Virus record (IMG/VR): IMGVR_UViG_2049941000_000062
Source: an uncultured virus (IMG/VR IMGVR_UViG_2049941000_000062)
Taxonomy: Duplodnaviria; Heunggongvirae; Uroviricota; Caudoviricetes
Length of the DNA stretch: 61,425 nt
Direction: 5' to 3' (one strand)
Shown one piece after another: positions 471 through 42,128 of this stretch; position 1 is the first letter of the stretch; the number at the start of each line of letters is the position of its first letter. The position numbers and the translations under genes were made by a program. The notes below the pieces were generated by a model. It was not told the DNA's origin, did not search any database, and saw only the letters and a list, made by a program, of their open reading frames with translations.

Positions 471-555
471 NNNNNNNNNNTGCCCCAATGAATATATTAT
501 AGGGTAGCCAAAAGGTTATAACAAGACTTCTTATCTAAGAAGCCTTTTTTAGTGT

Positions 556-606
556 GTTTCTTCGGAGTCTGAACTTGCACTTCAACTCTAGGAGTATAAG
601 AAACGG
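556..606 (+). promoter_or_regulatory. Early-leader hairpin exposing the 23-nt sRNA target (allele A, 563..585)
   Basis: Flanks GTTTCTTCGGAG...CTCTAGGAGTA are shared with allele B (35798..35845, minus); variable loop is complementary to 38047..38069 minus. Confidence 0.7.
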
Positions 607-659
607 AGCGGAAGCCACCACTCATACAACTTAACAACTCGGAATAACAAAATTAAGAT

Positions 660-813
660 TCGTGGAGTCCGTAGACTCGACATAGGAAATGCACTTGACC
701 TAAATATATTCAACCATATTCGTTAGACCTGCACGTTAGCAGAAGTAGAACATTCTTCGCAATAACAATGAGTTTTAAGCAATTGGTTTATGCCGGGTCT
801 TCAGACTTCACGA
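660..813 (+). promoter_or_regulatory. Long-range leader stem before first early gene
   Basis: TCGTGGAGTC..AGACTCGACATA pairs with TATGCCGGGTCT..GACTTCACGA; equivalent covarying stem at 35507..35740 minus. Confidence 0.6.
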
Positions 814-1219: not shown

Positions 1220-1750
1220 TTGACTATGAAGACAGTAGATATTAAAGGCAAAGCCTATGTAGAGGTTAACGAGAGAGTTAAACACTTCAGGGCTAACTAC
1301 AAAGACTGGGCTATCGAAACAGAGCTTCTATCAAACGATAACGGAGTATGTGTTTTCAAGGCAACAGTTAAAGACCCAGAAGGAGTGGTAAAGGCTACCG
1401 GCCACGCTTACGAGAACGAAGGTAGCACGTTTATTAACAAGACTAGCTATATCGAGAACTGCGAAACATCAGCAGTCGGTAGAGCTTTAGGTATGCTCGG
1501 TATCGGTATAGATACATCTATCGCAAGCTCAGACGAAGTTCAGAACGCTATGCAGAACCAGGGAGGTAAACCTGGAACCGACAAAGGTATCAACTTTACA
1601 GAGCTTAGAGAGAAATACTCAAAGTTCACTATCGAAGAACTCCGCAAGGAATACAAAGAGGTTCAAGAGTATCCTGGCTGGAGCGACAAGCAACGTGAGG
1701 CAGTCTTGAATATCATCTCAAGAGCTGTGGAGGCTAAGAAAAATGGATAG
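1220..1750 (+). CDS. Putative ssDNA-annealing protein (Rad52/Sak-like)
   Basis: ENCETSAVGRALG motif; occupies the same slot as the ERF gene of the other allele. Confidence 0.6.
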   Translation: MTMKTVDIKGKAYVEVNERVKHFRANYKDWAIETELLSNDNGVCVFKATVKDPEGVVKATGHAYENEGSTFINKTSYIENCETSAVGRALGMLGIGIDTSIASSDEVQNAMQNQGGKPGTDKGINFTELREKYSKFTIEELRKEYKEVQEYPGWSDKQREAVLNIISRAVEAKKNG

Positions 1751-3300: not shown

Positions 3301-3714
3301 ATGTTAGTGATTTTAAGTATTTTATTTGTAGCAGTTATAGCAGGAGCAATTATGTCCTGGAAAAATGACGAGAGCGAGTTGACCTTTTTGCTTGTAGTTG
3401 TGGGGGTAATTGTGGGTATGGCTACTATACCTGGCTTAGTAAATATCTCGTTTGGAGAAAGCACATATACAGGTTACATCTACTCTGCAGAGAACGTCTT
3501 AAATATGACAGTCGGGCGTATTCGTTTCTCAGAAAATGCAGGTGCAGACGAACAGCCTAGCTTCTGCACCGTAAAAGGTTCAGAGCAAGCTAAAAAACTT
3601 AAAGAGTTAGCTGGTAGCGGAAAGAAAGTTGTTGTTACAGTCCCAGAGGGGTTTGTGTTAAATAACTGGTACGGACAATGCGGTCTCCCAGCTGTTATCG
3701 AGGAGGCAGAATGA
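3301..3714 (+). CDS. Membrane protein, hypothetical
   Basis: SD GGAGG, two N-terminal hydrophobic segments. Confidence 0.65.
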   Translation: MLVILSILFVAVIAGAIMSWKNDESELTFLLVVVGVIVGMATIPGLVNISFGESTYTGYIYSAENVLNMTVGRIRFSENAGADEQPSFCTVKGSEQAKKLKELAGSGKKVVVTVPEGFVLNNWYGQCGLPAVIEEAE

Positions 3715-3944
3715 TATTCGGCAAAAGAAAACGCACCTATGTAGACCCAGTAGAGCAGACGTTCAACATTATGATTAAACTTATCAAAGACTTGCCTAAA
3801 GCAGACTATAACCGTCTTAAAAAGGCTATGGACGCTGGCTACCAGAGCTATCAAATCGTTCGCAACGTCAAGACGGACGATGAGCGAGAGAACGCAGATA
3901 TTGACGAATCAGACAGGATATTAACGAAAGAGAGTGGTAAATGA
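3711..3944 (+). CDS. Conserved hypothetical protein
   Basis: Homolog at 32710..32869 minus; ATGA overlap with upstream gene. Confidence 0.7.
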   Translation: MIFGKRKRTYVDPVEQTFNIMIKLIKDLPKADYNRLKKAMDAGYQSYQIVRNVKTDDERENADIDESDRILTKESGK

Positions 3945-5002
3945 TCCTAGTCCGTTCAGAAGTAGAGTTTATAGATATTCGAAATAACAACCAGCTCAGA
4001 AAAGAGGGGGAGGTCTTCGAAGTATCTTATGCACGCCTACTCGAACTAAAAAAGAATGGAGTCAAGGTAAAGGTTATCAGAGTTGATTATCTAGGACGCA
4101 AGAAAAAGACAGGCCCTAAGGTTATGTTCTTCCAGAAATTGCTTTATGTAATTGGAGGAATTGAAACCTGGGGCCTTACTCTCGCTAAACTATACGAAGA
4201 CAGGGATATAACCTTCGTATTCTCTGAGGCAGACGACATTCAACTTATGGAGTTCGCCAAGTATTGTAACGTAGTCGTAGACGACGGACAGAGCCACTAC
4301 AAGTGCGACGTTCTTATATCTTCAAACTACGACGGTGGAGCTATCATTCTAGACCGTGTAGAAGCGAAGAAAAGGTATCAGACTATCCACTCAGACTTCG
4401 AGGCTATCAAGAAGTGTTATGGCTGGCATAACTTCAAGCTTGATATAGNNNNNNNNNNTAAGAACGAGTTTGGCTACGATTCGACTATTATTACTAACCC
4501 CCTGCTACCACTCGGAGAAAAGCCTCTAATTCTTTTAACTCTCTCTAGAGCAAGCGAAGAAAAAGGCTTCTGGCGAATGGTATCTATGGCTAAAAGGTTG
4601 GAAGGTGCAGGCAAACCGTTTATCTGGCTCGTAGCTTCAACCTTATGTGTAGCACCAAAAGACTTGCAGAAGGCAATTAAGTCTATCCCTGAAATGATAG
4701 AAGTAGAGCCACAGTTTTACACTAAGCAGTTGCTACATATTGCAGACTACTGCGTCCAGTTATCTGATACTGAGGCTTATTGCTATTCCATACACGAAAG
4801 TCTTGCTACCGGCGTTCCGGTTATCGCTACCGAGTTCGACCAGGCTAAGAAGATTATCAAAGACGGAGAGAACGGTTATCTCTTAAAGTTCGACTTATCT
4901 AACCTTGACGTTAACAAGATATTTAACAAAAGGCCTACTGGTTTCAAGTACGAAGAAAAGCCAAGCCCACTATGGGAGAAGGTTCTAAATGGTACGCTAT
5001 AA
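3941..5002 (+). CDS. GT4-like (glycos_transf_1) glycosyltransferase
   Basis: GGIETW; EAYCYSIHESLATGVPVIAT (EX7E); DGENGYL; spans one gap. Confidence 0.85.
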   Translation: MILVRSEVEFIDIRNNNQLRKEGEVFEVSYARLLELKKNGVKVKVIRVDYLGRKKKTGPKVMFFQKLLYVIGGIETWGLTLAKLYEDRDITFVFSEADDIQLMEFAKYCNVVVDDGQSHYKCDVLISSNYDGGAIILDRVEAKKRYQTIHSDFEAIKKCYGWHNFKLDIXXXXKNEFGYDSTIITNPLLPLGEKPLILLTLSRASEEKGFWRMVSMAKRLEGAGKPFIWLVASTLCVAPKDLQKAIKSIPEMIEVEPQFYTKQLLHIADYCVQLSDTEAYCYSIHESLATGVPVIATEFDQAKKIIKDGENGYLLKFDLSNLDVNKIFNKRPTGFKYEEKPSPLWEKVLNGTL

Positions 5003-5723
5003 GGTTTCAGTTATTATGGCGGCTTATAACGCCGAAGACACTATCGAAATGGCTCTCAACTCTATCCCAGACCGTGATGACGTGGAGATCATCGTAGTAA
5101 ACGACGGCTCTACGGACAAGACGGCCCAGAAGGTCAGAGATTTCGGCCGTGCTAGGTTGATCCAGCACAAAAAGNNNNNNNNNNATGACGTAGAGATCAT
5201 CGTAGTAGACGACGGCTCTACGGACAAGACGGCCCAGAAGGTCAGAGAGTTCGGTAGAGCAAAACTAATTCAGCACAAAAAGAACTACGGACTCGGCAAA
5301 GCCCTTAACACAGGCCTTAAAGAATCAACCGGCGAGTATGTAGTTATGCTAGACGCTGATGACGACTTCTACCCTGTTATCTTCGAGGAAATTATGGAAG
5401 ATCTAGACGGCACAGATTTAGTTTATTTCAACCTTATCACAAACGACGGTACTATCTTCGATCTAACGCCAAACTCTAGAGATATTTACTGCGGACAAAC
5501 CAAGTTTATACGAAAAGAGTTTATCGGAGATGCCAAGTACGACGAATCAGCTCCGATAGCTGAAGACGTTTCATTCTGGAATGAGTTAAAAGAAAAGAAC
5601 CCGACTGAGAAATACACAGGTCTTGTCGTTAAGCACTACAACTCACCAAGAGAAGGTAGTTTAACTTGGAGAAGACAGCAAGGCGAGTTTAACGATTATT
5701 TAAGAGAGAAAGGCGAGTTATGA
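4989..5723 (+). CDS. GT2 glycosyltransferase
   Basis: VSVIMAAYN, DDGSTD, LDADD; internal duplication at a gap is an assembly artefact. Confidence 0.85.
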   Translation: MVRYKVSVIMAAYNAEDTIEMALNSIPDRDDVEIIVVNDGSTDKTAQKVRDFGRARLIQHKKXXXXDVEIIVVDDGSTDKTAQKVREFGRAKLIQHKKNYGLGKALNTGLKESTGEYVVMLDADDDFYPVIFEEIMEDLDGTDLVYFNLITNDGTIFDLTPNSRDIYCGQTKFIRKEFIGDAKYDESAPIAEDVSFWNELKEKNPTEKYTGLVVKHYNSPREGSLTWRRQQGEFNDYLREKGEL

Positions 5724-6370
5724 AAGTTAGCATCATTATTCCAATCTACAATAGGTTGCACTCTACAATTAAGCTCCTAAGCAAACTAGACGACCAACTA
5801 GACCTCTGGAGGGATAGCGTACAGGTTATCTGTATTAACGACGGTTCAAAAGAAGAACTAGAATGCGAGAAGGCTGTTGAAGGTTTATGCCAGGCGTTTG
5901 GTTTCGAATACTACAAACAGAAGAACATCGGTGGAGCTGCTACTTGTAACAAAGGTATCGAGAAGGTCAAAGGCGACTACTTTACCTTCATCGACTGCGA
6001 TGACGATATAACAGACGACTACATACAAAATATCTTCTCGGAGCTAGGCGATAACGAACATCTTATTGCTTATAAGTGGTACTTCAAAGAGCCTAGAGAA
6101 CTAGGAGAGTGGCACGATAAGCCGTATGTTAACTGGAATGTTTGGAGTTATCTATTTAGAACAGATTATTTTAGCGAGTTCAAGTTTGACGAAAATATTA
6201 ACGTCGGTTGGGACTATGACTTCGTGCATAGGTCGATAGGGTCTAAACCTGATATGTATATCAGATACGTTCCAACTAAGGCGCTAGTTATTTACGATAG
6301 CGAAAACCCACAGAGCATAACAAATATGTTCCACCGTGGAGAAATTAAAGCAAGAAAGGACGACAAATGA
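5720..6370 (+). CDS. GT2 glycosyltransferase
   Basis: VSIIIPIYN, NDGS, FIDCDD. Confidence 0.85.
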   Translation: MKVSIIIPIYNRLHSTIKLLSKLDDQLDLWRDSVQVICINDGSKEELECEKAVEGLCQAFGFEYYKQKNIGGAATCNKGIEKVKGDYFTFIDCDDDITDDYIQNIFSELGDNEHLIAYKWYFKEPRELGEWHDKPYVNWNVWSYLFRTDYFSEFKFDENINVGWDYDFVHRSIGSKPDMYIRYVPTKALVIYDSENPQSITNMFHRGEIKARKDDK

Positions 6371-34500: not shown

Positions 34501-35088
34501 TTAAGCCTCCTTGCGAGAGTCCATCTCGTTTTGGATAATCTTGCAGATAGCTTCCTTTTGCTTGTCCGTGTATTTGCCATACCCCTTGACTGCTGAGAAC
34601 TTCTTGACGAGTTCTGGTGTGTCTAGGCCTTTAACTTCTTCACGGATTTTGTCGAAGTCTATTCCGTTCTTAGCTTGTTCTGGTTGAGCAGGCTTCTTGC
34701 TGACTTGTTTCTGATATTCATCAGTATCAGCATCTTTCGTATCGTCGATAAGGAATAGGCCGTTAAGCGCGTACTTGCGAGCGTAACTCGAAGCTGTGCC
34801 TGTGATTTGGCTTTCGTCCATATCTTTCTTACTATCGGCCTCTCTAGCGTATGCCGTCACCACTTTGTCGGTTTGTCCGTCATTAAATGTGGCGGTTGCT
34901 TTTACATATATCCTTCCGCCGATTTCTACGACCTCGTCCGATAATGTGAGCGTACAATCGTTGCTGGCTAAGAGCGGCTTTACTGCCTCTAAAATATCCT
35001 CAGCTGAGCGATAATTGTAGTTTCCAAAGTTGTTCCTCTGGTTCTTTGGAGCTTTAAGCTCCGATTGAATCTGCATTAACTTCTTCAT
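34501..35088 (-). CDS. ERF family ssDNA-annealing protein
   Basis: YNYRSAEDI and QITGTASSYARKYAL motifs. Confidence 0.85.
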   Translation of the reverse strand: MKKLMQIQSELKAPKNQRNNFGNYNYRSAEDILEAVKPLLASNDCTLTLSDEVVEIGGRIYVKATATFNDGQTDKVVTAYAREADSKKDMDESQITGTASSYARKYALNGLFLIDDTKDADTDEYQKQVSKKPAQPEQAKNGIDFDKIREEVKGLDTPELVKKFSAVKGYGKYTDKQKEAICKIIQNEMDSRKEA

Positions 35089-35641: not shown

Positions 35642-35848
35642 GTGCTAGAACCTATAACCGAAGGCCTCTACGAATGAACATAAACCTACAAAAAATGNNN
35701 NNNNNNNTACCTTCTGATCTAGCCGTATAGCCTCACGAATCTTAATTTTTCTTAGTGGCTAAATTGTTAAAGAGTTTGAGTTCTGCCTTCCGGCGAGTTT
35801 CTGTTACTCCTAGAGCTAAATCGACTGTTCAAGCTCCGAAGAAACCGT

Positions 35849-35876
35849 AAAAAAAGACTTCTTGATAAGAAGTCTT
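35849..35876 (-). terminator. Terminator-like hairpin at the entry to the early leader
   Basis: AAGACTTCTT-ATC-AAGAAGTCTT + U-tract; imperfect equivalent at 523..550 plus. Confidence 0.6.
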
Positions 35877-35912: not shown

Positions 35913-35959
35913 GGGGACGTAGCTCATCTGGTAGAGCGCAGCATTCGCATTGCGAAGGT
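35913..35959 (+). tRNA. 5' half of tRNA-Ala(CGC) within attP (incomplete tRNA)
   Basis: GGGGACG TA GCTC ATCTGGTA GAGC G CAGCA TTCGCAT; no T-arm or acceptor 3' strand follows; TTGTTA-17-TATAAT promoter upstream. Confidence 0.8.
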
Positions 35960-36209
35960 TCTCTACCTAGTTATGTTTGATTTCTTATCGTANNNNNNNN
36001 NNNNNNNNNNNNNNNNNNNNNNNNNNNNNNNNNNNNNNNNNNNNNNNNNNNNNNNNNNNNNNNNNNNNNNNNNNNNNNNNNNNNNNNNNNNNNNNNNNNN
36101 NNNNNNNNNNNNNNNNNNNNNNNNNNNNNNNNNNNNNNNNNNNNNNNNNNNNNNNNNNNNNNNNNNNNNNNNNNNNNNNNNNNNNNNNNNNNNNNNNNNN
36201 NNNNNNNNC

Positions 36210-36317
36210 ACAGGGTTCGGTTCTACCGTTTGCTCCCCTGTGGTTTTTTTGTGTTAACAGGTATGGTATAGTCAGATATTCGTCGATATACCTCCTAACA
36301 GCTTCTGATATCTTCAT
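36210..36317 (-). pseudogene. Internally deleted integrase allele
   Basis: MKISEAVRRY (integrase N-terminus) joined without a gap to the integrase 3' end TACCATACCTGTTAA and its downstream hairpin. Confidence 0.7.
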
Positions 36318-36401
36318 ATAAAAAACTCCCCCANNNNNNNNNNCCGCATTAGTTAATATACGTTAGGGGAATGAACTTTGGTAGTGTTTAAGCCGATTTC
36401 G

Positions 36402-36615
36402 CTATTGACACTCTCTGCCGATACAAGCCACGAAGTAGTGAGCTGGCGATTTCTTAGTTGAGGCGATATCTACGAGTTCCCAGAATCTAGTACCATCTAA
36501 GTAGCAAGCACCCTTAGCTACAGCATCGTGCCACCTAGCTTCTACTCTTAAACGTTGCATAGCGGCTGAGATCATATAGTCTCGCTCTTTAGTATCCAAG
36601 TTGTTAGTCCTACCT
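36402..36615 (-). CDS. Allele of the 96-aa gene upstream of integrase
   Basis: Homologous to 37598..37888. Confidence 0.7.
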
Positions 36616-36625
36616 NNNNNNNNNN

Positions 36626-36859
36626 GCCTCTACTATCCAGCTAGTTATCCGTAATGCTACCGAAAAGGCTGGACTACAAAAGAAGGTAAGTCCACACACG
36701 CTGCGCCATAGTTTCGCCACTAACTATATCGGGAACGGTGGAAACATCAGACACCTTGCCGATCTGCTAGGCCACGCAAGCCTTAACACTACCGCCCACT
36801 ACACACACATAGTGAATAACGATCTAAGGAGGGAATATAGCCTGTACCACACCTGTTAA
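36626..36859 (+). CDS. Tyrosine integrase C-terminal fragment
   Basis: PHTLRHSFAT, LLGHASLNTTAHY (HxxR, H, Y); not in ORF track. Confidence 0.9.
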   Translation, partial: ASTIQLVIRNATEKAGLQKKVSPHTLRHSFATNYIGNGGNIRHLADLLGHASLNTTAHYTHIVNNDLRREYSLYHTC

Positions 36860-36945
36860 CATCAAAAAACCACAGGGGGACACACGCTAGAAGCGAACCC
36901 TGTGGATAACTCATTATACCATACAAAAAATCTTTTGTAAAACTA

Positions 36946-36974
36946 TTGACTATAATGCTTATGAGTGCTATACT
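36946..36974 (+). promoter_or_regulatory. Strong sigma70 promoter facing attP
   Basis: TTGACT-17-TATACT with TGn extension. Confidence 0.7.
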
Positions 36975-37069
36975 AAAGTTAAGAAATCGCAAATTAAAAG
37001 GACATATAGATTTACGATAAGAAATCGAACATAGCTGGGTAGCGCACCTTCGCAATGCGNNNNNNNNNN

Positions 37070-37549
37070 TGTATCTCGGTTGAGTTGCACTAGCTCGGAC
37101 ACTCGGATACCTGAAGCATACAAAATAGAGATGATAAACTTAGTCCTTATAATATCCGTTGACGCTATCATTTTGTCTACTTCTTCGGCTGTTAGGAACG
37201 CTGGCAAAACAGGGTCTTTTCTCGGTGTTGGTATAAGTGTGTAGTCTATACATTCTTCGCCTCTGAGTTTCCAGTATTTAAGCACCATTCTAAGGTTGCA
37301 TAGGTAGTTATGAATCGTATTATTACACCTATGCCGGCCATAAGTAGCTAGCTCAGTCTTAAACTTAGATATAATAGCTAGGTCTATATCTTTTAACTCT
37401 GTATCTCCAACAATATCGCACCAGTACCTAGCCAAAGCTCGGTAGTGGAATATCAGAGCCTTATTCACACCTTTAATAGATAAATATTCCTCCTCATATC
37501 TCCGCACCGCCGTAGATAGTTTCATATAAAAAATACTCCCCCACCTCAT
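37070..37549 (-). CDS. Tyrosine integrase N-terminal part (probable start 37525)
   Basis: SAM-like N-terminus then LPAFLTAEEV...SGIRVSEL. Confidence 0.88.
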
Positions 37550-37597
37550 TAGTTGATATTGTGGGGAAGCTATAACCGTTATGAACTTTGGTAGTGT

Positions 37598-37888
37598 TTA
37601 AGCGTATTTCTTAATCTCTTTACCGATACAGGCTACGAAGTAGTGAGCTGGAGAGTTCTTAGAAGAAGCAATATCTACTAGCTCCCAAAACTTAGCACCT
37701 TCTAAATAACAAGCTCCTCTAGCTACTGCGTTATGCCATTGTTCCGATATACCTAGTCTTCTCATAGCCGTTGAGATCATATAATCTCTTTCTTTTACTG
37801 CTAAACCGTTAGTCCTATTCATTGAATCATTGAAGTTTCTTTTAAGAAACTTATCACTGATATTCATTGAAGTAGCTTTGTTCCCCAT
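37598..37888 (-). CDS. 96-aa hypothetical protein co-oriented with integrase
   Basis: SD AAGGAGG; other alleles at 36402..36615 and 38731..38794. Confidence 0.75.
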   Translation of the reverse strand: MGNKATSMNISDKFLKRNFNDSMNRTNGLAVKERDYMISTAMRRLGISEQWHNAVARGACYLEGAKFWELVDIASSKNSPAHYFVACIGKEIKKYA

Positions 37889-38013
37889 AAATCCTCCTTT
37901 TTATAAGCACCCAAAATAAGTAGCCGTATGTAGGCACAGCCTTGAGTATTGTTGTTATGTAGAGTTTTCCACAATCGTACGAAACTTGCTTGAACTCATT
38001 GTTTGTCTTCTGT

Positions 38014-38072
38014 AAACAAAAGACTCCTGCCACACTTAGTGGCTAACGGAGTCTGAATTTGCACTTCAATAC
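38014..38072 (-). ncRNA. Candidate immunity sRNA/attenuator, allele A
   Basis: TTGACA-17-TAATAT promoter (38105..38077); AGACTCC/GGAGTCT terminator; 22/23 complementary to 563..585. Confidence 0.75.
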
Positions 38073-38110
38073 CTTTATATTACACCAGATCGACTAAAAT
38101 GTCAATAGCC

Positions 38111-38720
38111 TTAGCTGGAAGTGGTGTAGTCTATGATAATGTATCCTGAGTTAGTTTCACTCATAGCTGTTCCAAGAACAGAAGCCCAAGTATTCTTGTT
38201 TATATCACGAATTGAAATACCATAAGGTACTACGTTATCTGGTGGAGCAGAGTTAATATCGACATAGTTGTTTGATCCGTCATACCACATACCGTCTAAA
38301 CGGATAAACACCTGGAAGTTATTAGGGAATGCCCTATCCCAGTTATGAGCCGTGTATCCTCTTGTAAGATTTGAAAATGGTTGAACCCTACGATATAAAG
38401 GCTTACCCATAAACGTCCCCAACCTAACGTCCGTAGTAGCGTTGCCACAGTCTATCAGGCTAGGGTCTATTTTTGCAGCTGTGATCGCATTATCTGCGAC
38501 CTTAGCCGTAGTTACTGCGTCATTTGCAAGTTTAGCCGTAGTGATAACACCGTCTGGAATATCCTTATAGTCTATGTCTACCGACTGCGTGCCGGTCTTG
38601 TCCGTGATGTTGATCCTGATACCGTCTGCAATAGTCTGTGTGGTTATAATAGGGCTAAAACCGTCTGTGCCTGGAGTTCCTGGGTCTCCCTTCTCTCCTG
38701 GCTCTCCTGGCTCGCCAGGA
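38111..38720 (-). CDS. Tail fibre C-terminal part (collagen-like repeat)
   Basis: PGE repeats, DGVITTAKLA repeats; probably continues 43790..44104. Confidence 0.7.
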
Positions 38721-38917
38721 NNNNNNNNNNATCCATTGAAGTTTCTTTTAAGAAACTTTTCATTGATATTCATTGAGTATCTGTTGTTCCCCATAAAATA
38801 CCTCCAATTTTTAACACCCAAAATGTAGTCCTGTTTAGTCGTACACACCAGGTTAATTATATTATGTAGAGTTTTCCACAGTTCTAGAATAGTAGATCAC
38901 TCGCTCGTTGAGCTTCT

Positions 38918-38975
38918 AAAAAAGCTCCGTCCCTACTAGAGGGGATAGACGGAGCTTGAATAGTCGATTTAGTAT
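38918..38975 (-). ncRNA. Candidate immunity sRNA/attenuator, allele B
   Basis: TTGACA-17-TACAAT promoter (39008..38980); AGCTCCGTC/GACGGAGCT + U6 terminator; 22/23 complementary to 35816..35838. Confidence 0.78.
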
Positions 38976-39004
38976 CTTTATTGTAGCAAAGATTGGCTAA
39001 AATG

Positions 39005-39853
39005 TCAAGCCGTACGCTTCCACATATAGACCGTTAAGTACGGTGGCATATTGTTGTGTGGTTGTCCACCACCAGCAGGTATGATAGCGTTGCTTGTATC
39101 GACAGGATCGCTCGTCAACTGTTGTCGTGACATAGCGTCCTTGTCATTACCGTTGCCTACACGTCTAAAACCTTGCGAGCTGTGGGTGTGGCTTGGCATC
39201 TCTTCAATAGTAAGAGTATGCGTTGCTTCACCACCTGTCGCACCAGCCGTATATGTATCGCCTGCCGAGAGTAGGAACGTATCTTCTATCTGTTCCCAAA
39301 TACCCCCCATAAATGTTTCTGGGCTTACATTGTTTACCGACATATAGATCGAGCCAACTGGGTAGATGATGCTAAGAGCTACGTCCTTGAACGCTTGCTC
39401 GGTTGGTATGTAAGCATCTTCCCCCGGATCGCCTTTAGGTAACGTGAGGTTAAGTGTTTGATCCGGTGGAGTTCCAGTTATAGTAGCGCCAGCCGTAGCA
39501 CCACCTTGTACAACCCCAATAGACAGGGAATTGGCTGGGCCTGGCTCTCCATTTGCCCCTGGAGGCCCTTGAATACCTCTAGGCCCTTGAAACTGTGCGC
39601 CTTGACCTTCTTCCGGCCACCTCTCCCCAGTCCATATATAGAGTAAGCCGTCTGCTTGGACGAAATATGCTACTCCAGCGTCTGACGGTGTTAAGTGGTG
39701 TGGCAGATCGGAATATGTGTCTACTGAGCCGTCTATCTCAAGACCTGCCCCAGCAGGGCCTGGAAGCCCTTGCAAGCCTCCAGCACCCTTTACTATCACG
39801 TGTGTATGTTCTTGTGATACTTTGACTAGGTTGTTTACTACGTTTGGTTGCAT
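39005..39853 (-). CDS. Short tail fibre/collar-domain protein
   Basis: Gly-X-Y repeats; YPVGSIY...HNNMPPYLTVYMWKRTA. Confidence 0.8.
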   Translation of the reverse strand: MQPNVVNNLVKVSQEHTHVIVKGAGGLQGLPGPAGAGLEIDGSVDTYSDLPHHLTPSDAGVAYFVQADGLLYIWTGERWPEEGQGAQFQGPRGIQGPPGANGEPGPANSLSIGVVQGGATAGATITGTPPDQTLNLTLPKGDPGEDAYIPTEQAFKDVALSIIYPVGSIYMSVNNVSPETFMGGIWEQIEDTFLLSAGDTYTAGATGGEATHTLTIEEMPSHTHSSQGFRRVGNGNDKDAMSRQQLTSDPVDTSNAIIPAGGGQPHNNMPPYLTVYMWKRTA

Positions 39854-39854
39854 A

Positions 39855-42128
39855 TTACCTCACTTTCACAAAGTTTGTACCGTCGTAGATATAGTCTATA
39901 TAGCCTGAGTTTGAGTTGAATGCTGTTGCTAGTGTTGCAGGTAGATACTGCGAGGTTACTGTTGCCGTGCCACCGTCTACCATAATCTTCGCTCCTGCCA
40001 ATGCTTCGAGTTGTGTAATAAGTGTAGCATCTGTAATCTGTGTGTCCGTTGCGTTCTTTAGTGCGAAGTAGCACAAAACGATGTTATTAGTGATATATGT
40101 CTTAAAGGTTGCTGCGTCCCAACCATTATTTGAGAAGTAGATACCGTCATCGCCGACAGCACAGCCAACATTTGTCAAGCCGTTAACGAGAGCGTTCGCA
40201 TAAGTGTTCGTGAAGTGGTCACTCATCATAACCCCTGCTACTGATTTACTTGCGGCAGGCTGAATATCGTCCATTCCTAAGAGCGTCCAGTTAATCTTTA
40301 CCGTAGAAACAGATTTCCACCAAGGCAGGTCTTTTGTGTCGTAGAGATTGACCTTCTTTGTTTCTTTGTGAACATACCAGTCGTCGCCACTCTTGTAAAT
40401 ATAGTCTTGGTAAGTGCCGATTTTGCAGAGTTCGATAGGAGTGAAGTATGGTGCATAGGTAGTCTTAACGCTGCCGAACTCTAACTGAATCTTCAACGAA
40501 TCGACAATCTCTTGCGTTTGAACTGGTGTGTTGTTGCTTGAATCACGAGGCTGAATAATAACACCTAGATAATTCGTATTATTACCAGTTGTAATCGTGC
40601 TTGTTCCAGATAGCCAGTCAAACGATTCTCCACTCTCTGTTGTAGTGTTGCGAAGTCCTACGACATATAACCTAGTGTTCGGGTATGTGCTAGTATCGTT
40701 AATCGAGAACGTTAATTTGGTATTTGGTTGAACTTTTACAATGGCTAAATCACGATAATCACTACTAGAAGTAGTGAATACGTTGCCATCAGTACCTGTG
40801 AATGTAGCGTTAGTCTTAATCTGAACGGCTGAATTGTCGAACAGATTCTTACCCAAGTTCACTTCATACTCTCGGCTTTGGCTGTTTCCATCAGAAATAG
40901 TGATGGTTTGCTCGCCACTCACGGTGTGAATTGTTTGTGGGTAATCTGGGTTAGGGCTTGCAATTCCACCGACATAAGGTTCGAATGAACTTGCTTGGTT
41001 GCCAGCCTCAAGTTGAGCCTTGAATGTTTTGCCAGTATAGTTTGTGCCATTAGTCGTCGTCAACCAAAGCCTTACGCTTGTCGCATTTTGGGGAACGACA
41101 CATTCTACTGATGTATCATTATCGCCGAGTGTTTTTTGCAATATATTTGTAGTGCCATTGAAGAAAATGATATTTCTCCCTAGGCCTGCTTCGGTTGTTG
41201 CACTAAAAGTGTATGTACCAGCTGGTAAGTTTACGGAAACATCGTTAAAAGCATTCGACCAGTTATTATTTGCTGTGCCTGAAAGCGTTATCACGCCTGT
41301 TGCAGCATCATAGGAAGCAGTAAGGCCGCTACTTACTGAGCTTCTTGGGCTTGGTAATAAGAGGTTCTTTCCGCTATACGTTGTCTGCTCTGTATCGCCT
41401 TTAAGCTCGGTAACCGTGTTGTATCTGTCGTCTACGAAGTATTCCTGACCTGCAGTTCCTGTTGATGGTAATGAACTTACAAAGATAGGTTTGTCTGCCT
41501 TGCCTGCGAGTGCGTTCGTAACTACCTTATTCTGTACAGGGTTCTCGGAAGTTGGAGACAATGCTGGATCTATTGTTGGAGTTACACCGTCCGAGATTTG
41601 AGCGGTGGTTGTACCGTCTTTGTCTGTAATCGTGATCGTTGCGGTATCGCCAGTCTTTGTAACCGTAGCAGTAGGGCTGAAACCGTCTGCGCCGTCCTGG
41701 CCTGCAGGGCCTTGACTACCTGTATCGCCTTTTGCACCTTTAGGAATGCCGAAGTCGAAAACTGCAGCCGAACTTGTGCCGGTGTTTGTTACTGTTGCAT
41801 CTTCGCCTGGTTCGAGTGTGGTAGTTGTACCNNNNNNNNNNGAAATGGTAGCCGCAGCACCTGTTTCGCCTGTATCGCCTTTGTCGCCTTTAGGGATACC
41901 AAAGTTGAAGATAGCTGCAGAAGTAGAGCCTACATTCTGTACGGTTGCGTTTGAGCCTGCTGGTAATGTGGTAGTAGTGCCAGCGGTTACGGTTGCTGCC
42001 TCGCCTGGAACTCCTTGAGGGCCTTGAGGGCCTGTCTCTCCGGTTAAACCACGAAGACCACCAGCATTCTTAACTACTACGTGTGAGTTTGGCTGTGATA
42101 CTGTTACTTTATTCTGAATAAGTCCCAT
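39855..42128 (-). CDS. Long tail fibre allele 1
   Basis: Collagen repeats, FNFGIPKG repeats, GKNL domains. Confidence 0.75.
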   Translation of the reverse strand: MGLIQNKVTVSQPNSHVVVKNAGGLRGLTGETGPQGPQGVPGEAATVTAGTTTTLPAGSNATVQNVGSTSAAIFNFGIPKGDKGDTGETGAAATIXXXXGTTTTLEPGEDATVTNTGTSSAAVFDFGIPKGAKGDTGSQGPAGQDGADGFSPTATVTKTGDTATITITDKDGTTTAQISDGVTPTIDPALSPTSENPVQNKVVTNALAGKADKPIFVSSLPSTGTAGQEYFVDDRYNTVTELKGDTEQTTYSGKNLLLPSPRSSVSSGLTASYDAATGVITLSGTANNNWSNAFNDVSVNLPAGTYTFSATTEAGLGRNIIFFNGTTNILQKTLGDNDTSVECVVPQNATSVRLWLTTTNGTNYTGKTFKAQLEAGNQASSFEPYVGGIASPNPDYPQTIHTVSGEQTITISDGNSQSREYEVNLGKNLFDNSAVQIKTNATFTGTDGNVFTTSSSDYRDLAIVKVQPNTKLTFSINDTSTYPNTRLYVVGLRNTTTESGESFDWLSGTSTITTGNNTNYLGVIIQPRDSSNNTPVQTQEIVDSLKIQLEFGSVKTTYAPYFTPIELCKIGTYQDYIYKSGDDWYVHKETKKVNLYDTKDLPWWKSVSTVKINWTLLGMDDIQPAASKSVAGVMMSDHFTNTYANALVNGLTNVGCAVGDDGIYFSNNGWDAATFKTYITNNIVLCYFALKNATDTQITDATLITQLEALAGAKIMVDGGTATVTSQYLPATLATAFNSNSGYIDYIYDGTNFVKVR

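What the first reader, a model, noticed from the sequence alone, without database searches (positions are those of the whole stretch)
38918..39008. Allele-specific sRNA-leader pair: candidate RNA-only immunity / lysis-lysogeny switch
Seen: upstream of the 96-aa/integrase operon each allele has a consensus promoter driving a ~60-nt RNA that ends in an intrinsic terminator (A 38014..38072; B 38918..38975, minus). Its 5' 23 nt are complementary to the early-operon leader of the matching allele. Allele A: UUGAAGUGCAAAUUCAGACUCCG versus CGGAGUCUGAACUUGCACUUCAA at 563..585. Allele B: CUAAAUCGACUAUUCAAGCUCCG versus CGGAGCUUGAACAGUCGAUUUAG at 35838..35816. The specificity sequences differ strongly between alleles yet co-vary, and both duplexes keep a single A-C mismatch at the same central position 12. 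The target lies in the variable loop of a hairpin with conserved flanks, and pairing would also consume the 5' arm of the sRNA's terminator. Known analogy: P4 CI RNA and P1 c4 antisense immunity. Inference: a reciprocal switch in which the sRNA silences the early operon (heteroimmunity) and/or the early RNA antiterminates the integrase operon. No HTH repressor is recognisable in the window.
Basis: partly seen in the sequence, partly recalled or inferred. Interest (0 to 1): 0.92.

Follow-up and report, generated by a model that had tools for sequence, protein, structure and literature searches.

The report
Matched antisense RNA and phage leader
A family of small uncultured temperate phages carries a roughly 55-base RNA gene whose 5' end is complementary to a hairpin loop in the leader of the phage's early genes, and the two sequences change together from phage to phage, which suggests an RNA-based immunity determinant.

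Summary
The window is a scrambled scaffold of two related ~29-kb phages. Each has a consensus promoter, a 43-63-nt RNA (single-stranded 5' tail, two-tier terminator hairpin, U tract) and a 23-nt match to the early leader.

Seven more alleles came from public viral contigs. In all 9 alleles the RNA 5' end and the leader target are complementary over 22-28 nt, with 11 mismatches in 216 positions, all transitions. 18 of 24 pair columns show compensatory changes. The cognate pairing is the single best of 362,880 permutations.

The true layout is co-directional: sRNA, 96-aa gene, integrase, second consensus promoter (P2), attP (antisense tRNA 5' part), terminator T1, target hairpin, structured leader, early genes. 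RNA specificity is uncoupled from the 96-aa protein and the integrase. No repressor family was recognised in a 99%-complete relative. Rfam has no match.

Best reading (0.6): a trans-acting antisense RNA that sets allele-specific immunity by acting on the early leader, and that also serves as the attenuator of the integrase operon. The regulatory outcome is inferred; no expression data were found. It is a new variant of RNA-based phage immunity (P1 c4, P4 CI).

The parts
38980..39008 (-). Promoter of sRNA allele B (TTGACA, 17 nt, TACAAT)
   Evidence: Read. The -35 element and the -10 frame are invariant in the 9-allele alignment A6.
38918..38973 (-). sRNA allele B: 16-nt unpaired 5' tail, two-tier terminator hairpin, U tract. 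Bases 38950-38972 are complementary to leader B.
   Evidence: Fold -17.4 kcal/mol, z = -3.5. Local alignment 23 nt with 1 mismatch.
38077..38105 (-). Promoter of sRNA allele A (TTGACA, 17 nt, TAATAT, with TG before the -10)
38014..38070 (-). sRNA allele A. Bases 38047-38069 are complementary to leader A.
   Evidence: Fold -20.3 kcal/mol, z = -3.9. 23 nt with 1 mismatch.
563..585 (+). Target of sRNA A in the early-operon leader
556..604 (+). Target hairpin A: outer stem GUUUCU/AGAAAC, inner stem GGAGU/ACUCU, loop starting with CUGA
   Evidence: Inner stem paired in 94% of cells, with GC to AU and UA to CG exchanges.
523..550 (+). Intrinsic terminator T1 (allele A), directly upstream of the target hairpin
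   Evidence: Hairpin plus U tract predicted in 9 of 9 leaders. The stems differ between alleles and include G.U pairs that are valid only on this strand.
605..619 (+). Small hairpin with a GGAA (GNRA-type) loop after the target hairpin
   Evidence: 3 of 4 pairs show changes on both sides.
657..668 (+). 5' strand of an 11-bp long-range helix. Its 3' strand (about 804-817) ends a few bases before the ribosome site of the first early ORF (ATG about 832).
   Evidence: Found in 9 of 10 leaders at -16.6 to -19.0 kcal/mol, with sequence differences compensated on both strands. Allele G differs.
35816..35838 (-). Target of sRNA B in the early-operon leader
35797..35846 (-). Target hairpin B
35849..35876 (-). 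Intrinsic terminator T1 (allele B)
35913..35965 (+). 5' part of a tRNA-like sequence (attP core, allele B), on the strand opposite to phage transcription
   Evidence: The equivalent in relatives is seen. In L145 ARAGORN calls tRNA-Pro(CGG).
37598..37888 (-). 96-aa ORF (allele A), first gene downstream of the sRNA terminator
   Evidence: No Pfam or PHROG family. Predicted four-helix domain.
37070..37549 (-). N-terminal part of a tyrosine integrase (allele A), cut by an N run
   Evidence: phrog_1 and PF00589. Full-length 281-aa relatives.
36946..36974 (+). P2: second consensus promoter (TTGACT, 17 nt, TATACT). It lies after the integrase and reads across attP towards T1 and the leader. This piece is in inverted orientation in the scaffold.
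   Evidence: The same element was read in 7 related loci and scored 10 of 12 in L002.

Best explanation
The feature is a trans-acting antisense small RNA and its target.

Shown from sequence:
- A constitutive-looking sigma-70-type promoter drives an RNA of about 43-63 nt: a 14-17-nt unstructured 5' tail followed by an intrinsic terminator.
- The tail and the 5' arm of that terminator are complementary to the loop and 5' arm of a hairpin at the start of the early-operon leader of the same phage.

Inferred mechanism:
- The tail nucleates on the YUNR-containing target loop, and pairing spreads into both stems to give a duplex of about 23-28 bp.
- In cells that carry the phage, this duplex lowers expression of the early (lytic) operon of any phage with the matching leader. 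The route would be remodelling of the structured leader, leading to premature termination or RNA decay.
- The variable tail and loop would therefore set immunity specificity. Phages with other alleles would escape.

The same transcription unit is the leader and attenuator of the 96-aa/integrase operon. Pairing sequesters the terminator's 5' arm, so it may also raise integrase expression when early RNA is abundant. That is a weaker inference.

The only consensus promoter that can feed the early leader (P2) lies on the other side of attP. Integration would therefore also disconnect the early operon from its promoter. This too is inferred.
For: 1. Nine alleles were compared: 2 in the window and 7 from viral contigs. 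Each has a cognate complementarity of 22-28 nt, with 11 mismatches in 216 positions. All mismatches are transitions that give U.G (5) or A.C (6).
2. Anchored pair table: 195 Watson-Crick, 5 G.U and 7 other among 207 cells. 18 of 24 columns changed on both sides with pairing kept. This includes a 1-nt deletion present in both partners (C versus D) and a 2-nt double change (A versus I).
3. RNAduplex gives cognate pairs -35.6 to -41.5 kcal/mol against a non-cognate mean of -21.8. The cognate partner is best in 9 of 9 rows and columns. The observed assignment is the unique best of 362,880 permutations, and 1 of 720 for six specificity groups.
4. Both elements lie on one contig in 9 of 9 genome copies outside the window. 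Only two places per genome match.
5. Complementarity starts at or within 3 nt of the position 7 nt after the -10 hexamer and ends in the terminator's 5' arm. Where that arm differs (alleles B and G), the leader flank differs in step.
6. All 9 RNAs fold as tail, hairpin and U tract, z = -2.6 to -5.4.
7. The target hairpin's inner stem covaries. A leader A-to-G change is compensated inside the hairpin (AU to GC) and stays a G.U with the unchanged sRNA.
8. The loop starts with CUGA, UUGA or UUAG in 9 of 9. That is a YUNR motif as described for antisense recognition loops (PMC4485353, passages).
9. Specificity is uncoupled from the neighbouring proteins. C and C2 have identical RNAs, yet their 96-aa proteins are 42% and their integrases 62% identical. 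A and I differ by 2 nt in the RNA, yet their 96-aa proteins are 19% identical. A and C have 78% identical 96-aa proteins but unrelated tails.
10. In a 30,562-bp relative rated 99% complete, all 45 chosen ORFs lie on one strand. None matches a repressor, HTH or antirepressor family in Pfam (45 of 45) or PHROGs (45 of 45).
Against: - No transcript data. No RNA run was listed, so the RNA, its ends and any effect are predictions.
- An intrinsic terminator (T1) sits directly upstream of the target, and no consensus promoter lies between T1 and the first early ORF. How early transcripts arise is therefore unexplained.
- Folding the leader with the target blocked revealed no conserved new terminator and no consistent change in ribosome-site accessibility.
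- The consensus scan listed neither the sRNA terminator nor T1 among its 3 terminator-like sites in L002.
- The 9 alleles form about 6 independent groups within one phage lineage, so shared descent inflates some counts.
- Many early ORFs have no assigned function and could include an unrecognised repressor.
- Linkage of A with A and of B with B is not shown by the window itself.
Confidence: 0.6

Rival explanations
1. The direction of control is the reverse. The short RNA is only the terminated by-product of an attenuator in front of the 96-aa/integrase operon. The early-leader hairpin acts in trans as an antiterminator: by pairing with the nascent tail and terminator arm, it lets integrase be made only when early transcripts are present. 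There is no effect on the early operon.
For: No separate promoter was found between the sRNA terminator and the 96-aa gene in L002, so the operon depends on read-through. Complementarity always covers the terminator's 5' arm, even where that arm differs (alleles B and G).
Against: A trans RNA would have to bind within the roughly 40 nt between synthesis of the tail and of the terminator's 3' arm. Diversification of the tail and loop is easier to explain by immunity specificity than by integrase timing. A consensus promoter and a stable terminated product suggest that the RNA accumulates.
Confidence: 0.15
2. The pair controls replication or copy number, or incompatibility, in the manner of plasmid antisense systems, rather than lysogenic immunity. 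The leader RNA or the early operon would be needed for replication, and the sRNA would throttle it.
For: The sRNA architecture (about 17-nt 5' tail, terminator hairpin, U tract) equals that of pMV158 RNAII (PMC4485353, abstract and passages). No replication initiator was recognised in the phage. DnaA-box-like motifs lie near the integrase (motif recalled).
Against: The phages carry an integrase and a tRNA-type attP, which implies chromosomal lysogeny. The early operon encodes a recombinase, a nuclease, a methylase and glycosyltransferases rather than a recognisable Rep protein. No plasmid maintenance genes were seen apart from a ParB-like domain next to the methylase.
Confidence: 0.1
3. The two 23-mers are DNA sites: operators for an allele-specific DNA-binding protein, or recombination sites that flank the integrase module.
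For: They form an inverted DNA repeat of 22-28 bp that flanks the 96-aa gene, the integrase and attP. One copy lies at +1 to +24 of a promoter, a possible operator position.
Against: The sites have no internal dyad symmetry. The second copy has no promoter nearby and lies in an RNA hairpin that covaries on its own. The neighbouring proteins do not covary with the sites. An early 91-aa protein with a recalled HTH-like motif keeps that stretch invariant in all 8 alleles aligned and has no HTH fold match. The orientation is the same in 9 of 9 genomes, so no inversion was seen. No recognisable DNA-binding regulator was found.
Confidence: 0.05
4. The match has no function. It persists through co-inheritance or gene conversion between two copies of one sequence.
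For: The elements are only 1.6-2.2 kb apart on the circular map, and some alleles are close relatives.
Against: The segment between them is mosaic (C versus C2, A versus I, A versus C), so recombination separates them, yet every genome has a matched pair. The position-specific architecture (start site, terminator arm, hairpin loop) is kept in all 9.
Confidence: 0.05

Closest known systems
c4 antisense RNA of phages P1 and P7
   Same: A small phage RNA acts as an immunity factor by base pairing. Differences in the complementary sequences give heteroimmunity. Recognition sequences are presented in RNA loops (review PMC12197685, passages; the P1/P7 heteroimmunity detail is recalled).
   Different: c4 is described as acting on the ant mRNA together with protein repressors (C1) in a large phage. 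Here the RNA has its own promoter and terminator, 1.6-2.2 kb and two genes upstream of a single target. No protein repressor is recognisable. There is no Rfam match.
CI RNA of satellite phage P4
   Same: Immunity rests on an RNA that pairs with the untranslated leader of the operon it controls and causes premature termination (PMC4825925, passage).
   Different: P4 CI is processed out of the same leader transcript and has two targets, seqA and seqC, on either side of it. Here there is a separate transcription unit and one target per genome. No sRNA-dependent terminator was found by modelling.
pMV158 RNAII and hok/sok-type antisense RNAs
   Same: The RNA architecture is nearly identical: a single-stranded 5' tail of about 17 nt, one terminator hairpin and a 3' U stretch. 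In hok/sok and p42d the tail pairs with a target hairpin loop. YUNR recognition loops are used (PMC4485353, abstract and passages).
   Different: Those RNAs are cis-encoded on the opposite strand of their target and control plasmid replication or a toxin. This one is trans-encoded in a phage, so complementarity has to be maintained by co-evolution of two separate loci.
IsrK of the Gifsy-1 prophage
   Same: A prophage sRNA ends at a terminator, and read-through of that terminator yields a longer mRNA isoform. The short form acts in trans (PMC4825925, abstract in the search listing and passage).
   Different: IsrK acts on its own read-through isoform to activate translation. Here the target is the leader of another operon.
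Integration-dependent immunity of mycobacteriophage BPs; circularisation-dependent transcription of Tn916
   Same: attP lies inside a regulatory unit, so integration rewires expression (PMC4557955 and PMC3694055, abstract starts in the search listing only). In Tn916 a promoter reads across the joint of the circular form (recalled; no call).
   Different: In BPs, attP lies within the repressor gene and the circuit is protein-based. Here attP lies in non-coding DNA between a promoter and a terminator-guarded leader, and the effect is only inferred.

Membership tests
P1/P7 c4 and P4 CI antisense immunity RNAs (Rfam 'C4' family; name recalled) | Sequence and structure match to the curated RNA model | tested here: not met
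   cmscan of the window at gathering scores gave 0 matches. cmscan of L002 9700-11800 at E up to 10 gave 4 chance-level matches to unrelated families and none on the sRNA or the leader.
P1/P7 c4 and P4 CI antisense immunity RNAs | The RNA is cut out of the leader transcript of the operon that it controls | tested here: not met
   By sequence anatomy only. The RNA has its own consensus promoter, with complementarity starting at the predicted start site, and its own terminator. It is separated from the target by the 96-aa gene, the integrase, P2 and attP. No RNA data.
P1/P7 c4 and P4 CI antisense immunity RNAs | Complementarity to the controlled transcript that differs between related phages in step | tested here: met
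   9 alleles. 18 of 24 pair columns are compensated. The cognate assignment is the unique best of 362,880 permutations.
P1/P7 c4 and P4 CI antisense immunity RNAs | Two target sites in the controlled transcript | tested here: not met
   One target per genome: 2 places in G001 within 3 mismatches, the sRNA gene and the leader. The same holds in the window within 5 mismatches.
P1/P7 c4 and P4 CI antisense immunity RNAs | Confers superinfection immunity by blocking expression of lytic functions | not testable with these tools
   Needs lysogens or reporter assays.
Tail-plus-terminator antisense RNAs (pMV158 RNAII, Sok type) | Single-stranded 5' tail, terminator hairpin, 3' U stretch | tested here: met
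   9 of 9 alleles, z = -2.6 to -5.4.
Tail-plus-terminator antisense RNAs (pMV158 RNAII, Sok type) | Target presents a hairpin loop with a YUNR motif | tested here: met
   The loops start with CUGA, UUGA or UUAG in 9 of 9. Motif definition from PMC4485353.
Tail-plus-terminator antisense RNAs (pMV158 RNAII, Sok type) | Encoded in cis on the strand opposite to the target | tested here: not met
   Gene and target are 1.6-2.2 kb apart and transcribed in the same direction.
Integration-dependent immunity (BPs type) | attP lies inside the repressor gene, so integration shortens the repressor | tested here: not met
   The tRNA-like attP core lies in non-coding DNA between P2 and T1.
Tyrosine-integrase / tRNA attP module | Phage_integrase catalytic domain, with a partial tRNA copy next to the integrase | tested here: met
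   PF00589 at 1e-34 in the G001 integrase and phrog_1. The antisense tRNA 5' part lies after the integrase in all loci read. ARAGORN calls tRNA-Pro(CGG) in L145.

The most novel reading that the evidence does not exclude
A widespread group of about 29-kb one-directional temperate phages has no protein repressor. Lysogeny is held by two nucleic-acid devices. First, integration at attP cuts the only early promoter (P2) away from the early operon, which is further insulated by terminator T1. Second, a constitutive antisense RNA neutralises early leaders of the same allele, giving RNA-coded heteroimmunity. The same RNA-RNA duplex opens the terminator in front of the integrase. Together these form a reciprocal RNA toggle that decides between integration and lytic growth.
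Probability: 0.25. Interest if true: 0.9.

Novelty: new variant of a known kind. Interest (0 to 1): 0.74.

Why it matters
RNA-based immunity is known from only a few well-studied elements (P1/P7, P4 and relatives). It is usually layered on protein repressors and made by processing of the target's own transcript.

Here the determinant would be a free-standing gene of about 55 nt plus a target loop of about 23 nt. The two are kept matched by co-evolution across a mosaic region, in phages that show no recognisable repressor.

If confirmed, this would be a minimal, programmable immunity module. Specificity could be read, and predicted, directly from sequence, which would help sort uncultured temperate phages into immunity groups.

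It would also give a natural set of orthogonal sRNA/target pairs: at least 6 specificity groups here, and 140 or more related protein clusters in public data.

The layout also raises a testable idea: prophage silencing by physical separation of promoter and operon at attP.

Tried and rejected
- Expression: no RNA holder was listed for window 37070-38720.
- Whole genome and earlier findings: neither was available.
- Close cultured relatives: none. blastn of 36344-39900 against phages found 2 records covering 6%. tblastn of the 96-aa protein found no match. The portal protein found 1 record at 26.6%.
- More alleles. The 14-mer scan gave 118 stretches, almost all unrelated. The leader pattern gave 4 viral stretches and 18 metagenome stretches, of which 4 were related and only 1 short contig was new. 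Profile A4 and the arm-motif scan gave nothing new. One scan was wasted through my own spacing error.
- 96-aa protein: no Pfam family even at E up to 10. Foldseek against PDB gave none at E 0.001 or below. The VIA wide search gave a best Z of 7.2, within the range of unspecific helical bundles. Atlas leads to RepB_C and RepA_C scored below 0.8. Its function stays open: recombination directionality factor, RNA-binding helper or other.
- Early 91-aa protein that I suspected by eye to be a winged helix: AlphaFold pLDDT 72.6, all-helical; no Foldseek match; no named atlas family.
- sRNA-dependent terminator in the leader: not found in a conserved form.
- Effect of target blocking on accessibility of the first ORF's ribosome site: small and of mixed sign in 9 leaders, and the start codon was probably mis-picked in H.
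- A promoter between T1 and the first ORF, or an antisense promoter over the target: none conserved (and reading).
- Complex prediction was not used, because the question is RNA-RNA.
Full report
What the window is. The 61,425-base window holds 53 runs of N, mostly 10 long. A self-comparison shows that it consists of many short pieces of two or more related genomes, 70-95% identical, placed in mixed order and orientation. The window cannot show which sRNA is linked to which leader. No whole genome is held for the window.

Check of the observation. On the minus strand, allele B reads TTGACA, 17 nt, TACAAT (38980-39008). After 7 nt comes an RNA of about 56 nt (38973-38918). Allele A reads TTGACA, 17 nt, TAATAT (38077-38105) and an RNA of about 57 nt (38070-38014). 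Both fold into an unpaired 5' tail, a two-tier hairpin and a U tract, at -17.4 and -20.3 kcal/mol, with z = -3.5 and -3.9 against 200 shuffles. The first 23 nt after the start base are complementary to 35816-35838 (B) and 563-585 (A) with one mismatch each, at position 12, an A.C in the duplex. No other place in the window comes within 5 mismatches, and 100 shuffled windows gave 0 hits at 3 mismatches or fewer.

True layout, from relatives. The 96-aa protein found two IMG/VR contigs. Profile and DNA-pattern scans added more. In every contiguous copy the order on one strand is as follows:
- tail-fibre genes
- sRNA promoter, then the sRNA with its terminator
- the 96-aa ORF
- a tyrosine integrase of about 281 aa
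- a long hairpin
- a second consensus promoter, P2 (TTGACT, 17 nt, TACAAT or TATACT, with TG before the -10)
- short conserved repeats
- the reverse complement of the 5' part of a tRNA (the attP core)
- an intrinsic terminator, T1
- the target hairpin, then a leader of about 230-350 nt
- a small membrane ORF, a recombinase and the rest of the early genes

The consensus scan of L002 scores the sRNA promoter and P2 at 10 of 12 each. It also finds a minus-strand promoter (TTGAGT, 17 nt, TATACT) that points into the tRNA part. That scan did not list the sRNA terminator or T1 among its three terminator-like sites; these rest on RNAfold.

The sRNA 5' end and its target are thus an inverted DNA repeat 1.6-2.2 kb apart that brackets the 96-aa gene, the integrase and attP. 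Both are transcribed in the same direction, which is why the RNAs are complementary. The window pieces fit this map. Piece 36626-37059 (plus strand) carries the integrase 3' end, the hairpin, P2 (36946-36974), the repeats and the start of the tRNA part.

The genomes are about 28-31 kb. One of them (G001, 30,562 bp) is rated 99% complete. All 45 ORFs chosen by length lie on one strand.

Co-variation. Nine alleles were compared:
- A and B, from the window
- C (L002 and L001, and the second genome copy L148 on the same 56.9-kb contig)
- D (L147, the same contig as L070)
- E (L143), F (L144), G (L145)
- H (L146, with its leader at the other end of the same contig, L150)
- I (L153)

An ungapped local alignment of each sRNA region against the reverse complement of its own leader gives 22-28 complementary positions, with 11 mismatches in 216. 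All mismatches are transitions that give U.G (5) or A.C (6) in the duplex. Counted from the conserved 3' anchor, 207 cells hold 195 Watson-Crick pairs, 5 G.U and 7 others. 18 of 24 columns changed on both sides with pairing kept.

Close alleles show single events compensated on both sides. C and D differ by one base deleted in both partners. A and I differ by two adjacent bases changed in both. In B and G even the otherwise conserved part, the terminator's 5' arm, differs, and the leader flank differs in step.

RNAduplex energies are -35.6 to -41.5 kcal/mol for cognate pairs against a mean of -21.8 for the 72 non-cognate pairs. The cognate partner is the best in all 9 rows and columns. The observed assignment is the only one of 362,880 permutations with so low a sum, and 1 of 720 when one allele per specificity group is kept. 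C, D and F are close enough to cross-react (-33 to -37). A and B are far apart (-12.8 and -14.4).

I have no explanation for it.

RNA or DNA. Several features argue that the match is read as RNA.
- The complementarity begins at or within 3 nt of the base 7 nt after the -10 hexamer and runs into the terminator's 5' arm.
- The sRNA tails are predicted to be unpaired.
- The target lies in the 5' arm and loop of a hairpin whose inner stem is paired in 94% of cells, with GC to AU and UA to CG exchanges. The three leader helices together beat all 500 column shuffles on covariation score and all slid controls.
- In five alleles the leader has G where three have A. The change is compensated inside the hairpin (U to C) and remains a G.U with the unchanged sRNA.
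- All nine loops begin with a YUNR motif, which is described as a feature of antisense recognition loops. Tail-to-loop pairing is described for hok/sok and p42d (PMC4485353, passages).

The sites have no dyad symmetry, and the second copy has no promoter near it.

The proteins next to the sites do not follow the RNA alleles.
- C and C2: identical RNAs, but 96-aa proteins 42% and integrases 62% identical, and different tRNA cores.
- A and I: RNAs differ by 2 nt, but the small proteins are 19% identical.
- A and C: 96-aa proteins 78% identical, but unrelated tails.

This mosaicism also means that recombination does separate the two sites. Their matching in 9 of 9 genome copies outside the window therefore points to selection rather than linkage.

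The leader is a structured RNA. After T1 and the target hairpin comes a small hairpin with a GGAA loop; 3 of its 4 pairs changed on both sides. An 11-bp long-range helix follows. Its 5' strand is the conserved GAUUCGUG motif, and its 3' strand ends 1-6 nt before the ribosome site of the first ORF. It is present in 9 of 10 leaders, with compensated differences. Rfam has nothing for the sRNA or the leader.

What remains unexplained.
- T1 is a hairpin plus U tract in 9 of 9 leaders. Its stems differ between alleles and contain G.U pairs that are valid only on the phage sense strand.
- T1 stands directly upstream of the target, and I found no conserved promoter between T1 and the first ORF. Early transcripts must therefore come through T1, from P2 in the circular form.
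- After integration at the tRNA core, P2 would sit at the opposite prophage end, pointing outward. The early operon would be left behind T1 without a consensus promoter.
- The minus-strand promoter next to the core would drive the rebuilt tRNA.
- All of this is inference from the map. How T1 is passed is unknown.
- Folding the leaders with the target blocked showed no conserved new terminator and no consistent change at the first ribosome site.

Is there a protein repressor? Pfam (21 window proteins; 45 of 45 G001 ORFs) and PHROGs (15 window proteins; 45 of 45) recognise these functions:
- integrase
- Erf-type recombinase
- glycosyltransferases
- a nuclease of the Holliday-resolvase/endonuclease type
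- a ParB-like domain and a DNA methylase
- terminase, portal, capsid and tail proteins
- a holin

They recognise no repressor, Cro, antirepressor or HTH family. One G001 ORF that crosses the locus boundary, and ORFs under 40 aa, were not scanned.

The 96-aa protein has no family. Its model is a four-helix domain (pLDDT 76.7) without a specific structural match.

A conserved early 91-aa protein that looked HTH-like to me has no fold match. The suspected recognition stretch is invariant across all 8 alleles aligned, so it cannot read the variable 23-mers.

About half of the ORFs remain unassigned, so 'RNA-only' is possible but unproven.

Comparison with known systems.
- The closest in function are c4 of P1/P7 and CI of P4: RNAs that give immunity by pairing with the controlled transcript (PMC12197685, passages; PMC4825925, passage). 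This RNA is not a member of that family. It has no Rfam match, its own promoter and terminator instead of processing, a trans location and a single target.
- In shape it equals pMV158 RNAII, which has a 17-nt tail, one terminator hairpin and a U stretch (PMC4485353). That RNA is cis-encoded.
- The use of a terminated leader as a trans-acting RNA recalls IsrK (PMC4825925).
- The position of attP inside a regulatory unit recalls integration-dependent immunity (PMC4557955 and PMC3694055, listing only) and Tn916 (recalled).

My four literature searches listed no description of such a trans-encoded sRNA/leader pair in a temperate phage. The library lacks most subscription journals, so this is not proof of absence.

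Verdict. The most likely function is allele-specific antisense control of the early operon, that is immunity, with possible coupling to integrase expression. The mechanism after pairing is open.

The phage group is larger than the nine genomes used. The 96-aa family has at least 140 clusters at 90% identity, almost all from metagenomes, on contigs up to about 31 kb.

Noticed in passing
window 1-61425: The window is a scaffold of N-joined fragments (53 N runs) of two or more related ~29-kb phage genomes, in shuffled order and orientation. Gene order in the window is not the biological order.
   Followed up: yes
window 36209-36333 (minus strand): An integrase start (about 16 codons) is joined directly to the last codons of the integrase at a shared GAATAT, so almost the whole gene is missing. 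This is either an assembly collapse or a natural integrase-deleted variant.
   Followed up: no
window 36866-36912; L002 11176-11232: A conserved long hairpin right after the integrase ends in TGTGGATAA, which I recall as the DnaA-box consensus. TGTGGAAAAC occurs once or twice in the 5' UTR of the 96-aa gene in all alleles. It may be an origin or a DnaA-linked control.
   Followed up: no
L002 and L148 (one 56,946-bp contig): Two related genomes lie in tandem on one contig. They share an identical sRNA and target, but their 96-aa proteins are 42% and their integrases 62% identical, and their tRNA cores differ. This is either a tandem double prophage or concatemer, or an assembly chimera.
   Followed up: partly
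L002 11360-11415; L147, L143, L150; L145 2710-2792; window 35913-35965: The attP cores copy the 5' part of at least three different tRNAs. One is Ala(CGC)-like by my own reading. One is called tRNA-Pro(CGG) by ARAGORN. The phage also supplies a promoter for the rebuilt tRNA, so it replaces the 5' half rather than the usual 3' end.
   Followed up: partly
L070 4450-4974 (strand opposite to all other genes): Allele D has an extra 174-aa gene, with an N-terminal membrane anchor, inserted between the integrase and P2. It is the only reverse-strand gene seen and could be a moron or an exclusion protein.
   Followed up: no
L002 11305-11350 and equivalents; window 36981-37020: Between P2 and the tRNA core lie three copies of an ATCG(C/A/T)AAAT-like motif, two of them as an inverted pair with a compensated difference between alleles C and D. 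They are probably integrase arm sites, or an RNA hairpin.
   Followed up: no
window 1220-1750 versus 34501-35088: At the same map position, allele A has a protein of PHROG 11717 (unknown function), whereas allele B has an ERF-family recombinase. This is module exchange within the early operon.
   Followed up: no
window 3941-6370; G001 3341-5704: The early operon carries two or three glycosyltransferases (GT1, GT2, GtrB-like). They may modify the host surface (serotype conversion) or the phage DNA.
   Followed up: no
alleles A, B, E, H, I (window 574 and 35827 in the leaders): An A.C mismatch is kept near the middle of the duplex in five alleles whose surrounding sequences differ. It always has C in the leader and A in the sRNA. 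No explanation was found.
   Followed up: partly
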